Position numbers and translations under genes: made by a program. A DNA stretch of 39,732 nt from Escherichia phage HK97, in sequence record NC_002167.1. One strand, written 5' to 3'. Each line of letters opens with the position of its first letter. Position 1 is the stretch's first letter. Shown here one piece after another: positions 7,859 to 38,400 of this stretch. The notes under the pieces are model-generated. The model was not told where the DNA came from. It saw only the letters and a program-made list of their open reading frames with translations, and made no database searches.

Positions 7859-8145
7859 AGTTTCTGATGTCGCTTGCGCTCCGGATGGGGCGCACGCTCT
7901 CAGAGCTTCGGCAGAATATGACGGCAAGCGAGCTTCTGATGTGGATTGAGTACGACAGGCAAAGCCCGGTTGGCGATATTCGCGGTGATATCCATGCAGC
8001 GCAGATTGTCTCTGCCATCTACGGCTCGCAGGGGGCAAAAGTACCGCTGGACGATGCGATCCTGCGCTGGGGTGGTGATGAGCAATCAGAACCGAAGGAC
8101 CCGTTTGCAGGGCTTGAGGCGGCACTTACAGCTGCGACACAATAA
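7807..8145 (+). CDS. tail assembly chaperone -1 frame extension (gpT-like segment)
   Basis: -1 frame relative to G is open from 7807 to 8145 and overlaps the G 3' end; GGGAAAAG run at 7833-7840 resembles the lambda G/T slippery site. Confidence 0.45.
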   Translation, partial: PDQQCGRSAGKVSTPGVKFLMSLALRMGRTLSELRQNMTASELLMWIEYDRQSPVGDIRGDIHAAQIVSAIYGSQGAKVPLDDAILRWGGDEQSEPKDPFAGLEAALTAATQ

Positions 8146-26033: not shown

Positions 26034-26417
26034 TCACCTTGCTGTCAGTTGTTTTGATTTCCTGTAGCCTGCCGCGTAAAGAGCTACATTTGGAAGACAT
26101 ACACCAGTTTCTGGTTGCCTATGCCCAAACTCATTCGCGTACACAATGGCCGCTCTCTCCAGATTGCGTCTGTATTCTTTCTGTTGCCAGATCACGTCCT
26201 GTGCCATGAACTTAATTGGCTTAGCGTCTTCTATGCGCTCAGGCGTTTCGTGAGTACCTTTAGCCTGAATCTGCGCTCTGCTTAGAGTAGGGCGGTGTAA
26301 TACTTCTGAACTTATTGCTTCTTCGCGGGCCAGTACGCCGTTAGCTAATGCCTTTGCCTTTAAACGCTCACGACGACGAGAACGTGAATTGCCTTTGAAC
26401 TGAGTTCTGCGTGTCAT
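26034..26417 (-). CDS. N-like transcription antiterminator (P22 gp24-like)
   Basis: 127-aa ORF with SD GGAGG; N-terminal Arg-rich motif (RRTQFKGNSRSRRRERLKAKA); C-terminus LPNVALYAAGYRKSKQLTAR resembles recalled P22 N; first gene after pL. Confidence 0.7.
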   Translation of the reverse strand: MTRRTQFKGNSRSRRRERLKAKALANGVLAREEAISSEVLHRPTLSRAQIQAKGTHETPERIEDAKPIKFMAQDVIWQQKEYRRNLERAAIVYANEFGHRQPETGVCLPNVALYAAGYRKSKQLTAR

Positions 26418-26597: not shown

Positions 26598-26663
26598 CGT
26601 AGATTCATATTCGAATCGTTGTATATCACCGCCCTGGTGAGTAGTGCGTCCTGCTGATGTGTT

Positions 26664-26726
26664 TAGTATCACCGCCAGTGGTATTTATGTCAACACCGCC
26701 AGAGATAATTTATCACCGCAGATGGT
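26664..26726 (-). promoter_or_regulatory. OL1-OL2-OL3 operators with pL
   Basis: TATCACCGCCAGTGGTA, CAACACCGCCAGAGATA, TATCACCGCAGATGGTT match recalled lambda OL1-3; pL -35 TTGACA and -10 GATACT on the minus strand. Confidence 0.85.
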
Positions 26727-26908
26727 TATCTGTATGTTTTTTATATAGATTTATTTTTTTTGCAGGGGTGTGTGGCTTGGGAGGTGATCGAGAGATCTGA
26801 ATTGCGATGTTTAGTGAGTTGTATCTATTAATTTTCAAATAAATACAATTGGTTATGTGTTTTGGGGCGAACGTGAGGCAAAGAAACCCCGGCGCGGTGG
26901 CCGTTTAT

Positions 26909-27559
26909 TTATTGCTTAGGAGCTTGTTGTGATGACGATTGGTTAGTTGGAGCGCTCGTTAATGGTTGCTGTGTCGGTACCTGTATTATAATTGGAGCCG
27001 GGCTGGTTACTGATGGTGACTTGTCATTGCCGGAGATAATCCAACTTGAGGCTAACATCACGCCAGACAGAATCACAGTAACTAAAGTCAAGCCAACGGC
27101 CATCGCCCACTGAGTCGTTGTAAGTCCCGTTTTCAAACCGCCGATTTCACCTTTAATTTCAGCAATACCTCTCTCAATAGAAGAAAATTGCTGAGTATAA
27201 TAGGTTTTAAAGTCAGCTGATTCGCGACGCATTTCCGCAGCAATAGACTCTACCTCTGATTTGTTTTGTGAAAGCTTTGCGTCAAGTTCTTCTCTGGACA
27301 TTCCGCTCACGCTTACCTCCAGGGTATCACTCTTCATCGCTACATCTTCCTTACTTGGGCGCAAACCCGTTTCGTCCATGGCGTATGAAACTCTATTTGA
27401 TACCTTAGCATCAATACCAATACTTTGGTACTGAGATGGATCCCCATAAGGAGAAACGGTTGTCGCTGCTAGGGTTGCACTAACTATAATACTTGGAAGA
27501 ACTGATGATGTTGTTCCTGAGGTAGGTTGAACTGAAGAAACTGGCTTCAGTCTTTCCAT
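26909..27559 (-). CDS. membrane-anchored coiled-coil protein (rex-position module, gene 3)
   Basis: 216-aa ORF; start overlaps upstream stop by 13 nt; central charged helical region, single TM (WAMAVGLTLVTVILSGVMLASSWII), Pro/Ser/Gln-rich C-terminal tail. Confidence 0.6.
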   Translation of the reverse strand: MERLKPVSSVQPTSGTTSSVLPSIIVSATLAATTVSPYGDPSQYQSIGIDAKVSNRVSYAMDETGLRPSKEDVAMKSDTLEVSVSGMSREELDAKLSQNKSEVESIAAEMRRESADFKTYYTQQFSSIERGIAEIKGEIGGLKTGLTTTQWAMAVGLTLVTVILSGVMLASSWIISGNDKSPSVTSPAPIIIQVPTQQPLTSAPTNQSSSQQAPKQ

Positions 27560-27813
27560 AGCCCATTATCCCTGAGAGCTACCTGTAATGATTTTACTAA
27601 TGCAACAGCTTGATCCGGGCTCATTGAGACTGACATGTTAGGGGTCAACTCAACTTTTACTTGGAAGCTATTATTTCCTTGCTCATCAGACTGCATGTGA
27701 TGCTCAAATTCATGGCGGTAAAAAGTAATGATTGTTTCAGCACGATCAGGCGTAATAAGAACTGATGTGGCGGTCATGTGCTGAGGTATGATTTTAATAG
27801 TGTTATCTGACAT
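27547..27813 (-). CDS. small soluble protein (rex-position module, gene 2)
   Basis: 88 aa from ATG 27813 with SD aagga 7 nt upstream (frame stays open to ATG 27954, which lacks an SD); AT-rich. Confidence 0.5.
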   Translation of the reverse strand: MSDNTIKIIPQHMTATSVLITPDRAETIITFYRHEFEHHMQSDEQGNNSFQVKVELTPNMSVSMSPDQAVALVKSLQVALRDNGLWKD

Positions 27814-28005
27814 AAGTATCCTTTTTGTTTCCTTAGTATTTTTTTGCATTGACATCAGAAATAGCGAATCCACAAGAGTATGAGTAAAGCTAATCAGTTT
27901 AGTGATACGGTGACTATTAAAGTGGTAAACCACATCAAAGCTCGCAGAGTGCATACCAGGCTGTCACACATGACAAAGTAACGAGGATGCCTGATCTCAT
28001 AGCGC

Positions 28006-28161
28006 TCAAAGAGACATGCCGATAATGGCATTAACCACGCATGACGCCATAAACACGCCGCCAACGATGAAGCTGGCTTGGTTCTTCCTGGTAGCGCCAA
28101 GAGTCAACAGAACCACTGAAAGGGCAAAAAAAGGTATCGCGATTATGCTGAACGTGTTCAT
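28006..28161 (-). CDS. 51-aa two-TM membrane peptide (rex-position module, gene 1)
   Basis: ATG 28161 with SD GAGG 5 nt upstream; two hydrophobic helices; below the ORF-track size cutoff; 78 nt downstream of cI stop. Confidence 0.4.
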   Translation of the reverse strand: MNTFSIIAIPFFALSVVLLTLGATRKNQASFIVGGVFMASCVVNAIIGMSL

Positions 28162-28238
28162 GTTGACCTCAACTTATTTCGATTCTCCATCACCCTTAAT
28201 CCGCCGCCCCATGTGTTTGTTGTGATCCGTTGCTGGCC

Positions 28239-28955
<717 letters not shown>

Positions 28956-28962
28956 TTAAATC

Positions 28963-29028
28963 TATCACCGCAAGGGATAAATATCTAACACCGTGCGTGT
29001 TGACTATTTTACCTCTAGCGGTGATAAT
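28963..29028. promoter_or_regulatory. OR3-OR2-OR1 operators with pRM/pR
   Basis: TATCACCGCAAGGGATA (OR3), TAACACCGTGCGTGTTG (OR2), TACCTCTAGCGGTGATA (OR1-like); pR -35 TTGACT and -10 GATAAT upstream of cro. Confidence 0.85.
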
Positions 29029-29043
29029 GGTTGCATGTACTAA

Positions 29044-29253
<210 letters not shown>

Positions 29254-29390: not shown

Positions 29391-29687
29391 ATGACACAAG
29401 CAAGTTACAGCAAGCCAACACAGCGAGAAATTGATCGCGCAGAAACAGATTTACTCATCAACCTGTCAACGCTTACCCAGCGCGGTCTGGCAAAGATGAT
29501 TGGCTGTCATGAATCGAAGATAAGCAGAACGGACTGGAGATTTATTGCTTCGGTCTTGTGTGCTTTCGGAATGGCATCAGACATCAGTCCGATTAGCAGG
29601 GCTTTTAAGTATGCATTGGATGAAATCACAAAGAAAAAATCCCCGGCTGCCACCGAGGATTTTAAGCAAATTGATATGCAATTCTGA
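29391..29687 (+). CDS. cII-like transcriptional activator
   Basis: 98-aa ORF after cro and nutR; C-terminus KKKSPAATEDFKQIDMQF resembles the lambda cII tail, N-terminal region differs. Confidence 0.65.
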   Translation: MTQASYSKPTQREIDRAETDLLINLSTLTQRGLAKMIGCHESKISRTDWRFIASVLCAFGMASDISPISRAFKYALDEITKKKSPAATEDFKQIDMQF

Positions 29688-30689: not shown

Positions 30690-32062
30690 GACAGGATATC
30701 GAAGCGAGCGTTATCGGTGGCCTGCTGATTGGTGGATTAACTCCAACCGCCAGCGACGTTCTGGCAACGCTAGAGCCGGAAGCGTTTTCAATTCCGCTCT
30801 ACCGGAAAGCCTTCGAGGTTATTCGCAAGCAGGCGAGAAACAGAAACCTAATCGACGCGCTGATGGTTGCCGAGGAGTGCGGAGAGGAGCATTTCACGTC
30901 AATCCTGATGACCAGCAAAAACTGCCCGAGTGCCGCAAACCTGAAGGGATATGCCGGAATGGTCGCGGATAACTATCACCGCCGTCTGGTGCTGGAAATC
31001 ATGGATGAAATGCGTGAACCAATCCAAAGCGGAACCATCGACGCATCGAGTCAGGCGATGGATGAACTTGTAAAGCGTCTTTCAGCCATCAGAAAGCCCC
31101 GTGACGAGGTTAAACCTGTACGGTTAGGGGAAATCATCACTGACTACACTGACACGCTTGACAGGCGTCTGAGGAACGGAGAAGAGTCAGATACCCTGAA
31201 GACCGGAATCGACGAACTTGACGCCATCACCGGAGGGATGAACGCAGAAGACCTGGTGATTATCGCCGCTCGTCCTGGTATGGGTAAAACCGAACTGGCG
31301 CTGAAGATTGCCGAAGGCGTTGCAAGCCGCGTTATTCCCGGTTCTGACGTCCGGCGCGGAGTGTTGATTTTCTCAATGGAAATGAGCGCATTGCAGATTG
31401 CAGAGCGAAGCATTGCCAACGCCGGGAGGATGTCAGTTAGCGTGCTGCGAAATCCTGCATCGATGGATGACGAAGGCTGGGCGCGTGTTGCTAACGGCAT
31501 GAGTCAGCTTGCAGATTTGGATGTATGGGTAGTCGATGCCTCGCGGTTATCGGTCGAAGAAATTCGCTCAATCGCAGAACGGCACAAACAGGAAAATCCA
31601 AACCTGTCACTCATCATGGCGGATTATCTTGGCCTGATTGAGAAGCCGAAAGCAGATCGCAACGACCTCGCAATTGCTCACATCTCAGGAAGCCTGAAGG
31701 CGATGGCGAAAGACCTGAAAACGCCTGTTATCTCCCTGAGTCAGCTTTCACGCGATGTTGAGAAGCGACCAAACAAACGCCCGACAAACGCAGATTTGCG
31801 TGATTCAGGAAGCATTGAACAGGACGCAGACTCAATCATCATGCTCTATAGGGAAGCGGTATATGACGAGAACAGTAGCGCCGCGCCATTTGCTGAAATC
31901 ATTGTGACAAAAAACCGTTTTGGCTCGCTTGGTACGGTTTACCAGCGGTTCTGTAACGGACACTTTGTTGCATGTGACCAGGATGAAGCCAGACAGATTT
32001 GCACAGCATCAAATGCACCCGCTGCACGTGGCAGACGATATGCACAAGGGGCTGACGTATGA
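30686..32062 (+). CDS. replicative DNA helicase (DnaB family)
   Basis: 458-aa ORF with Walker A-like GMGKTE and DnaB-like layout; start overlaps initiator stop. Confidence 0.85.
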
Positions 32063-36568: not shown

Positions 36569-37028
36569 TCAACGTAAGGCGTTCCTCGATATGCTGGCGT
36601 GGTCAGAGGGAACTGATAACGGACGGCAGAAAACCAGAAATCATGGTTATGACGTCATTGTAGGCGGAGAGCTATTCACTGATTACTCCGATCACCCTCG
36701 CAAACTTGTCACGCTAAACCCCAAACTCAAATCAACAGCCGCCGGACGCTACCAGCTTCTTTCCCGTTGGTGGGATGCCTACCGCAAGCAGCTTGGCCTG
36801 AAAGACTTCTCTCCCAAAAGCCAGGACGCTGTGGCACTGCAGCAGATTAAGGAGCGTGGCGCTTTACCGATGATTGATCGCGGTGATATCCGTCAGGCAA
36901 TCGACCGTTGCAGCAATATCTGGGCTTCGTTGCCGGGGGCTGGTTATGGCCAGTTCGAGCATAAGGCTGACAGCCTGATTGCAAAATTCAAAGAAGCAGG
37001 CGGAACGGTCAGAGAGATTGAGGTATGA
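36552..37028 (+). CDS. R: endolysin (lytic transglycosylase, lambda R-like)
   Basis: 158-aa ORF matching recalled lambda R ([28 protein letters not shown]…). Confidence 0.9.
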
Positions 37029-37671: not shown

Positions 37672-38400
37672 ATGTCCAATATCATCCCGATTGATTTCGA
37701 AGGCCATCCCATGCGTTTTTCTGACGATGGCTGGTTTGACGCGACTGCGGCAGCCGACAAGTTCAACAAGGAGCCGGCTCAGTGGCTTAGGCTTCCTGAG
37801 ACCGTCCGTTACATCGAGGCGTTAAAGAGTAGATATGGGAATATCACATATGTAAAAACCAGCCGCGCTCGCAAAGACCGTGGCGGCGGAACATGGCTTC
37901 ACCCAAAACTGGCGGTCAGATTTGCTCGATGGCTTTCTGTAGATTTTGAGATCTGGTGTGATGAGCAAATTGACGCAATCATTCAGGGTTCCGTTCATCA
38001 TATCGACGATGAAAGAATAAAGGCTATTTTCCTTCTGGATAAATCTCAGCCATGGGAAAAGAGGTTTAGCGATCCGTTTTATTCTGCGATGTTCAAAATG
38101 TCAGGGCTGCCCCGTCATCGGCCAGGTCGTCGCCCCTCACTATTTGGGATGATCAGTGCCAAGTGGGTATATGGCCCGGTATTACCACCAGAAGTATATG
38201 CAGAGGTTAAAAGACGGCTGGCTGCGGGAGACAAAATCCATCAGCACCTTAAACCTGACGCGCTGACATTGGTTGAGCGACAGATCATTGCCGTTACCAG
38301 CATTGCCAATGGGTGCTCTGATTATCGTGATTTCGAAGCGCGTTGCATGTCGGCATTCCAGGTGAAAGGGCAGATGAAATTGCTCTATGCGGCGGCCTGA
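37672..38400 (+). CDS. KilA-N domain protein
   Basis: From ATG 37672 (MSNIIPIDFEGHPMRF…DGWFDATAAADKFNKEP…) N-terminal region resembles KilA-N DNA-binding domain; the ORF-track frame opens earlier at 37597. Confidence 0.55.
   Translation: MSNIIPIDFEGHPMRFSDDGWFDATAAADKFNKEPAQWLRLPETVRYIEALKSRYGNITYVKTSRARKDRGGGTWLHPKLAVRFARWLSVDFEIWCDEQIDAIIQGSVHHIDDERIKAIFLLDKSQPWEKRFSDPFYSAMFKMSGLPRHRPGRRPSLFGMISAKWVYGPVLPPEVYAEVKRRLAAGDKIHQHLKPDALTLVERQIIAVTSIANGCSDYRDFEARCMSAFQVKGQMKLLYAAA

What the first reader, a model, noticed from the sequence alone, without database searches (positions are those of the whole stretch)
29010..29026. OR1-like operator differs by one base from the sequence I recall for lambda OR1
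The site reads TACCTCTAGCGGTGATA whereas I recall lambda OR1 as TACCTCTGGCGGTGATA. If real, a G-to-A change in the strongest repressor site would weaken repression of pR (operator-constitutive, vir-like). This rests on recall of the reference and may simply be natural variation.
Basis: partly seen in the sequence, partly recalled or inferred. Interest (0 to 1): 0.25.

Follow-up and report, generated by a model that had tools for sequence, protein, structure and literature searches.

The report
Common natural variant of lambda OR1
The one-base difference from phage lambda's OR1 operator is real, but it is the common wild form of the site in lambda-immunity phages and prophages, costs the repressor only about a two-fold loss of binding, and does not make the phage virulent.

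Summary
Window 29010-29026 reads TACCTCTAGCGGTGATA. Reference lambda (J02459) has G at the eighth base, which is lambda coordinate 38005.

The site is a genuine OR1. It sits between an OR2 and OR3 identical to lambda's and overlaps the pR -10 hexamer. It is flanked by a cI that differs from lambda's by 2 residues and a cro that differs by 1.

The "operator-constitutive, vir-like" reading fails on four counts:
- **Wild phages:** six of seven published wild phages with lambda immunity carry the A, and HK106 and mEp234 match the window across the whole 121-bp OR region. mEp234 is documented as sharing lambda's immunity group and being kept as a prophage.
- **Prophages:** the A form is in 47 of 76 IMG/VR contigs with this pR/OR1 sequence. 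It is also in 82 complete E. coli chromosomes, against 114 with G.
- **Binding:** the published substitution matrix for repressor on OR1 gives +0.4 kcal/mol (about 2-fold) for this change. The known virulence sites v3 (38007) and vC1 (38009) cost 2.5-3.7 kcal/mol.
- **Promoter:** the base lies at -18 in the pR spacer, outside both hexamers.

Verdict: an already-known natural polymorphism, of low interest. Lambda's G is the less common allele among the wild phages sampled.

The parts
29010..29026 (+). OR1 operator (CI/Cro binding site). The consensus half TATCACCGC is on the minus strand at 29018-29026, and the non-consensus half TACCTCTA is at 29010-29017.
   Evidence: One mismatch to lambda OR1. 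Same position as the annotated oR1 of HK106. Identical in HK106, mEp234 and PhiR5_2.
29017..29017 (+). The variant base: A here, G in lambda (lambda coordinate 38005). It is position 8 of the non-consensus half-site and lies at -18 in the pR spacer.
   Evidence: Alignment. Coordinate mapping via L002. Published ddG of +0.4 kcal/mol for G10-C32 to A-T.
28986..29002 (+). OR2 operator, identical to lambda's.
   Evidence: annotated equivalent in HK106.
28963..28979 (+). OR3 operator, identical to lambda's.
29000..29028 (+). pR promoter: -35 TTGACT (29000-29005), 17-nt spacer, -10 GATAAT (29023-29028). The inferred transcription start is at 29035.
   Evidence: Promoter scan, 10 of 12 matches. The start position is taken from the HK106 annotation offset.
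28239..28952 (-). cI repressor gene, 237 aa (HTH_3 plus Peptidase_S24). It differs from lambda CI by T2A (N-terminal arm) and K70N.
   Evidence: ORF list, Pfam, residue comparison.
29053..29253 (+). cro gene, 66 aa. It differs from lambda Cro by K39N (standard numbering).
   Evidence: ORF list, Pfam Cro family E=3e-35, residue comparison.
26667..26727 (-). OL1 (26667-26683), OL2 (26691-26707) and OL3 (26711-26727). All three read as I recall them for lambda.
   Evidence: The equivalent features are annotated in HK106.

Best explanation
This is the functional OR1 operator of a wild HK97-like lambdoid phage that carries the lambda immunity region. The A at position 8 is a common natural allele of OR1, not a lesion.

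The base lies in the non-consensus half-site. Lambda repressor reads that half loosely, because its N-terminal arm was not resolved there in the crystal structure. The change therefore costs about 0.4 kcal/mol, roughly a 2-fold loss of intrinsic affinity.

OR1 remains far stronger than OR2 and OR3. Cooperative CI binding at OR1 and OR2 should still shut pR, so the phage should remain temperate and sensitive to lambda immunity. At lysogenic repressor levels, residual pR activity should rise by at most about 2-fold.

Shown here: the sequence, the allele's prevalence, its presence in lysogens, and the published in-vitro ddG. Inferred: the in-vivo consequence for this particular phage.
For: - **Genuine operator context:** OR2 and OR3 are identical to lambda's, pR -35 and -10 are intact, and cI and cro are nearly identical to lambda's.
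- **Isolated phages:** the whole 121-bp OR region is 100% identical in the wild isolates HK106 and mEp234 and in phage PhiR5_2. Six of seven wild imm-lambda phages from the EF120455-EF120461 records carry A: HK106, mEp234, HK542, HK244, CL707 and mEp332. Only HK544 has G.
- **Documented immunity:** mEp234 is stated to share lambda's immunity group and to be kept as a prophage in MG1655 (PMC3442831).
- **IMG/VR:** an exact-pattern scan found 47 contigs with A and 29 with G. The A contigs span more than 20 distinct cI/cro/OR haplotypes.
- **Complete E. coli genomes:** 82 carry the exact 55-mer with A, all on chromosomes. 114 carry the exact 55-mer with G.
- **Binding energy:** Sarai and Takeda's substitution data, as tabulated in PMC2194778 Table 3, give +0.4 kcal/mol for G10-C32 to A-T. 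That is among the 12 mildest of 51 substitutions. The symmetric base in the consensus half (C12) costs 2.5-2.7 kcal/mol.
- **Known virulence mutations lie elsewhere:** v3 is at lambda 38007 and vC1/se109b at 38009, both in the consensus half (PMC3349717). The window's change is at 38005.
- **Operator hierarchy kept:** the additive matrix still ranks this OR1 above OL2, OL3, OR3 and OR2. A Shea-Ackers-type calculation gives at most a 1.98-fold rise in pR-open probability.
- **The switch tolerates larger changes:** lambda variants in which OR1 and OR3 have identical affinities still give stable lysogeny and a working switch (Little et al. 1999, as summarised in PMC6544977).
Against: - No binding or reporter measurement exists for this window's own CI (T2A, K70N) or Cro (K39N) on this operator. 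The 0.4 kcal/mol figure is for lambda CI in vitro and was read from a secondary tabulation, because the primary paper was not held.
- The effect on Cro binding could not be retrieved.
- The effect of an A at -18 on pR strength was not measured. The one mutant library I could read has 32T but not 32A.
- The cooperative-model parameters used were recalled from memory.
Confidence: 0.93

Rival explanations
1. Operator-constitutive or virulence-type mutation. The G-to-A change strongly weakens CI binding at OR1, so pR escapes repression and the phage is partly virulent or has an unstable lysogen.
For: The change is in the strongest OR operator. It is the pseudo-symmetric mate of the lambda vir v3 position (38005 versus 38007). 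G is the usual base at position 8 of lambda half-sites by my own count of the six operators. The direction of the measured effect is a slight weakening.
Against: - The measured ddG is only +0.4 kcal/mol, against 2.5-3.7 kcal/mol at the v3 and vC1 positions.
- The allele is the majority form in wild imm-lambda phages.
- It sits in integrated prophages in at least 82 complete E. coli genomes and 47 IMG/VR contigs.
- mEp234, with an identical OR region, is in the lambda immunity group and is held as a prophage.
- Virulence in lambda vir needs mutations in OL plus OR1 and OR2. Here OR2, OR3 and OL1-3 are unchanged.
Confidence: 0.02
2. A co-adapted allele set. OR1-A evolved together with the CI N-terminal-arm change T2A (plus K70N) and/or Cro K39N, so that the wild haplotype has a tuned switch that differs measurably from lambda's, for example in induction set-point or spontaneous induction rate.
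For: - 46 of 47 A-allele contigs in IMG/VR also carry cI T2A, and all 47 carry K70N. All roughly 16 lambda-type CI (T2, K70) contigs have G.
- From my knowledge of the 1LMB structure, the arm binds near the operator centre, which is close to position 8.
- Cro K39N accompanies A in about half of the contigs.
Against: - cI T2A/K70N also occurs with G in 12 contigs, and A occurs once with T2 (L023).
- The cI codon and the OR1 base are only 71 bp apart, so linkage alone explains the association.
- The arm was not resolved on the non-consensus half in the crystal structure (PMC2194778 methods).
- A occurs with three different Cro types.
Confidence: 0.04
3. A sequencing error or a laboratory-acquired mutation in this particular record.
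For: It is a single-base difference from the reference.
Against: The identical base is found in independent phage records from Hong Kong, Mexico and California, and in dozens of independent genomes.
Confidence: 0.01

Closest known systems
Phage lambda OR1 (J02459 37998-38014)
   Same: Same 17-bp operator at the same place, overlapping pR -10 and spaced identically from identical OR2 and OR3. The cognate repressor is the same apart from 2 residues and Cro apart from 1. 16 of 17 bases are identical.
   Different: Position 8 of the non-consensus half is A instead of G (lambda 38005). The published cost for lambda CI is +0.4 kcal/mol.
oR1 of the wild imm-lambda phages HK106 and mEp234 (EF120461, EF120460; annotated 'operator oR1, Cro; CI')
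   Same: 100% identical over the whole 121-bp OR region including the A, with the same cI T2A/K70N and Cro K39N. The same CII and N-side flanks are 98.7% identical over 1.6 kb.
   Different: The cargo between OL and cI differs: hicAB in HK106, and an HK225-like cassette of unknown function in the window. The window is a different mosaic elsewhere, with 92% coverage by HK106 on the left arm and at most 63% by any phage on the right.
Lambda vir / operator-constitutive OR1 mutations (v3 at 38007; vC1 = se109b and vs387 at 38009)
   Same: Single-base changes in OR1 near its centre. v3 is the pseudo-symmetric counterpart of the window's position.
   Different: Those mutations lie in the consensus half, where substitutions cost 2.5-3.7 kcal/mol and give CI-insensitive phenotypes. 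The window's change is in the non-consensus half, costs 0.4 kcal/mol, and is found in stable prophages.

Membership tests
Lambda-immunity OR1 operator (CI/Cro site controlling pR) | 17-bp pseudo-palindrome with a consensus half-site TATCACCGC | tested here: met
   29018-29026 (-) is TATCACCGC. The whole site is 16/17 identical to lambda OR1.
Lambda-immunity OR1 operator (CI/Cro site controlling pR) | Overlaps the pR -10 hexamer and lies next to OR2 and OR3, between divergent cI and cro | tested here: met
   pR -35 is at 29000-29005 and -10 at 29023-29028. OR2 and OR3 are identical to lambda's. cI ends at 28952 (-) and cro starts at 29053 (+).
Lambda-immunity OR1 operator (CI/Cro site controlling pR) | Cognate lambda-type CI and Cro encoded alongside | tested here: met
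   CI differs from lambda's by T2A and K70N only, and Cro by K39N only. Pfam assigns HTH_3 plus Peptidase_S24 to CI and the Cro family to Cro.
Lambda-immunity OR1 operator (CI/Cro site controlling pR) | Actually bound by CI and Cro, with repression of pR | not testable with these tools
   Inferred from the published ddG of +0.4 kcal/mol for this substitution, and from the lambda immunity phenotype of mEp234, which has an identical OR region.
Operator-constitutive / virulence (v-type) OR1 mutation | Base change that strongly reduces repressor affinity (on the order of 2 kcal/mol or more) | tested here: not met
   The tabulated Sarai and Takeda value is +0.4 kcal/mol, or 1.9-2.0-fold.
Operator-constitutive / virulence (v-type) OR1 mutation | Coincides with a known v or Oc site in OR1 | tested here: not met
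   The window change is at lambda 38005. v3 is at 38007 and vC1/se109b/vs387 at 38009.
Operator-constitutive / virulence (v-type) OR1 mutation | Phage escapes lambda immunity or cannot maintain lysogeny | tested here: not met
   This is indirect evidence. Phages with the identical OR region are temperate, and one is documented as being in lambda's immunity group. The allele is chromosomal in 82 complete E. coli genomes. It was not tested for this exact phage.

The most novel reading that the evidence does not exclude
The textbook lambda OR1 (G) is the less common allele in nature among the wild phages sampled. The wild A allele, usually travelling with the CI arm change T2A and often with Cro K39N, might set a measurably different switch point than laboratory lambda, such as somewhat higher spontaneous induction or a lower SOS threshold. 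That would be natural fine-tuning of the classic genetic switch.
Probability: 0.2. Interest if true: 0.25.

Novelty: already known. Interest (0 to 1): 0.07.

Why it matters
It matters little. The site is a textbook operator in a published natural allelic form. The same sequence is deposited and annotated as oR1 in HK106, mEp234 and other wild lambda-immunity phages.

There are two modest points of value. First, laboratory lambda's OR1 is not the commonest natural allele among wild phages, so a single-base departure from the lambda reference in the immunity region should not be read as a mutation. Second, the asymmetry of repressor recognition explains why a change two bases from the lambda vir v3 site is nearly neutral.

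Tried and rejected
- **Primary papers not held.** The wild imm-lambda phage paper (doi 10.1111/j.1365-2958.2007.05650.x), Sarai and Takeda 1989 (PMC297874) and Takeda et al. 1989 (PMC286485) could not be read. The repressor ddG therefore comes from a secondary table (PMC2194778). The Cro ddG for this base was not obtained.
- **No direct reporter measurement.** The eLife 2017 pR mutant library contains position 32 to T but not to A.
- **The 55-mer design did not separate the alleles.** I placed the variant base centrally so that megablast would miss the other allele, but mismatched hits were still returned. I used only the >=99% identity band, which means exact 55/55.
- **The genome-contig scan was uninformative for natural frequency.** All 24 hits have G, and most are in non-enteric assemblies. 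Those with enough cI sequence mostly carry cI A66T plus E117K. From my own knowledge these are the cI857 and ind1 markers of commercial lambda DNA, which points to contamination.
- **Compensatory co-evolution considered and rejected.** I did not adopt co-evolution of cI T2A with OR1-A as the main reading. T2A/K70N occurs with G in 12 contigs, and the two sites are 71 bp apart.
- **A fifth OR1-like hit was judged a chance match.** The site at 38180-38196 has a predicted cost of 4.2 kcal/mol, ranks 15th in the matrix scan, and lies inside an ORF.

Full report
**Observation**

Window 29010-29026 reads TACCTCTAGCGGTGATA. I fetched the lambda reference (J02459) and aligned the 121 bases spanning the start of cI, the three OR operators and the start of cro. 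Only two columns differ. The other is window 28946, a coding change in codon 3 of cI.

**What the site is**

It is a genuine OR1.
- OR2 (28986-29002) and OR3 (28963-28979) are identical to lambda's.
- pR is intact, with -35 TTGACT at 29000-29005, a 17-nt spacer and -10 GATAAT at 29023-29028.
- cI (28239-28952, minus strand) and cro (29053-29253) flank the region.
- OL1, OL2 and OL3 are at 26667-26727.
- OR1-like 17-mers occur 5 times in the window against 0.07 expected by chance.
- A scan of the whole window with the published repressor energy matrix puts the six canonical operators in the top six places. This OR1 ranks second.

The window as a whole is an HK97-like lambdoid phage genome of about 39.7 kb. 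It carries the lambda immunity region in a mosaic backbone. Its nearest relatives in GenBank are HK106 and mEp234.

**Natural variation**

The 121-bp OR region of the window is 100% identical to that of HK106, mEp234 and PhiR5_2. I aligned the seven wild phages whose immunity regions were deposited together (EF120455-EF120461). Six carry the A: HK106, mEp234, HK542, HK244, CL707 and mEp332. Only HK544 has lambda's G. In those records the site is annotated as 'operator oR1, Cro; CI'.

I scanned IMG/VR for the exact pR/OR1 sequence with the variable base left open. That returned 76 contigs, 47 with A and 29 with G. The A contigs fall into more than 20 distinct cI/cro/OR haplotypes, so they are not one clone.

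Among 5,426 complete E. coli genomes, 82 carry the exact 55-mer with A, all on chromosomes. 114 carry the exact 55-mer with G, and these include K-12 laboratory strains such as J53 and an MG1655 derivative.

The parallel scan of one genome per species returned only G. Most of those hits are in non-enteric assemblies. Those with enough cI sequence mostly carry CI A66T plus E117K, which I recognise as the cI857 and ind1 markers of commercial lambda DNA. I read them as contamination, which says nothing about natural allele frequency.

**Phenotype of phages carrying the allele**

PMC3442831 states that mEp234 and mEp332 share the immunity group of lambda. It also states that all the phages used were kept as prophages in MG1655. 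mEp234 has the identical OR region. The A allele is therefore compatible with stable lysogeny and with sensitivity to lambda immunity, which is the opposite of a virulent phenotype. The many chromosomal prophage copies point the same way.

**Binding energetics**

Sarai and Takeda's systematic substitution data for lambda repressor on OR1 are tabulated in PMC2194778 (Table 3). That table uses the numbering of crystal structure 1LMB, in which OR1 TACCTCTGGCGGTGATA runs from T3 to A19. The flagged base is G10.

| Base (1LMB) | Lambda coordinate | Half-site | Known mutation | ddG of substitutions (kcal/mol) |
|---|---|---|---|---|
| G10 (the window's change, to A-T) | 38005 | non-consensus | none | +0.4 |
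| C12 | 38007 | consensus | v3 | 2.5-2.7 |
| G13 | 38008 | consensus | none noted | 2.9-3.4 |
| G14 | 38009 | consensus | vC1 / se109b / vs387 | 3.1-3.7 |

A cost of 0.4 kcal/mol is 1.9-2.0-fold in affinity, and it is among the 12 mildest of the 51 substitutions.

PMC3349717 places the lambda vir OR1 mutation v3 at 38007, and vC1/se109b (same site as vs387) at 38009. The window's base, 38005, is thus the pseudo-symmetric mate of the v3 position. It falls in the non-consensus half, which the repressor reads loosely. PMC2194778 notes that coordinates for the N-terminal arm on that half were not available in the crystal structure.

With the additive matrix, this OR1 (0.4) stays well ahead of OL2 (1.1), OL3 (1.5), OR3 (2.2) and OR2 (3.0). 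The OR1 > OR2/OR3 hierarchy that drives the switch is therefore preserved.

I also ran a Shea-Ackers-type partition function, using cooperative parameters recalled from memory, so the result is illustrative only. The probability that OR1 and OR2 are both empty rises by at most 1.98-fold at any repressor concentration.

Much larger changes to OR1 are tolerated. Lambda variants in which OR1 and OR3 have identical affinities still give stable lysogeny and a functional switch (Little et al. 1999, as summarised in PMC6544977).

**Promoter**

The base lies at -18 relative to the inferred pR start at 29035. This is inside the 17-nt spacer and outside both hexamers, and it does not create or destroy an extended -10 TG. 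I could find no direct measurement of A at this position. The one library I could read has T there, not A.

**Linked protein changes**

The window's CI differs from lambda's by T2A (in the N-terminal arm) and K70N. Its Cro differs by K39N. In IMG/VR, 46 of 47 A contigs carry T2A and all 47 carry K70N. However, T2A/K70N also occurs with G in 12 contigs, and one A contig (L023) has T2. The two sites are 71 bp apart, so linkage is a sufficient explanation. I treat co-adaptation as an unexcluded minor possibility only.

**Conclusion**

This is the common wild allele of OR1 in lambda-immunity phages. It is already present and annotated in public records, and it is nearly neutral for repressor binding. 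Lambda's own G is the less common form among the wild isolates sampled. Novelty: already known. Interest: low.

Noticed in passing
window 26880-28240 (ORFs 26909-27559 -, 27547-27954 -, 28006-28161 -): The slot between OL3 and cI holds rexAB in lambda and hicAB in HK106. Here it holds three ORFs of 216, 135 and 51 aa. None reaches a curated Pfam cut-off or a convincing PADLOC hit. The DNA is 99.6% identical to a segment of phage HK225 and of Lambdavirus PDP110P1, where it is annotated only as hypothetical proteins. It may be a prophage-expressed accessory or defence cassette of unknown function.
   Followed up: partly
window 7982-7990 (-), 26624-26632 (+), 30974-30982 (+), 36880-36888 (-): The consensus repressor half-site TATCACCGC occurs 8 times in the window against 0.29 expected from shuffles. 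Four copies are in OR1, OR3, OL1 and OL3. The other four are isolated half-sites with poor second halves. One of them lies in the pL leader, 35 bp from OL1. Codon bias may explain the excess, but this was not tested.
   Followed up: partly
window 28944-28946 (cI codon 3), cI codon for residue 70 (about 28740-28742), and the cro codon 39 (29167-29169): CI carries T2A in the DNA-contacting N-terminal arm, plus K70N. Cro carries K39N. T2A/K70N is the commonest CI form among IMG/VR prophage contigs with this operator region (58 of 76). The lambda reference repressor is therefore also a minority allele.
   Followed up: partly
loci L079-L102 (genome-contig hits): Assemblies of unrelated bacteria (Shewanella, Pseudomonas, Desulfovibrio, Helicobacter, Mycobacterium and others) contain lambda pR/OR1. 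Those with enough cI sequence mostly carry CI A66T plus E117K, the cI857 and ind1 markers. Several sit on low-coverage contigs of about 48.5 kb. This is laboratory lambda DNA contamination in public genomes.
   Followed up: partly
L108 (Escherichia phage 4W, OM475432.1), OR1: This lambda-like phage has G-to-T at the central base of OR1 (position 9). In the same matrix that change costs 2.3 kcal/mol, which is a much stronger operator change than the one in the window.
   Followed up: no
window 26034-26417 (-) and 29391-29687 (+): The N and cII alleles flanking the immunity region are not lambda's. They match the HK106/mEp234 type, with cII in the Phage_CII family at E=4e-33. Sequence similarity to lambda stops just after cro, at about 29267. 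This fits the known mosaic boundary pattern around imm-lambda.
   Followed up: partly
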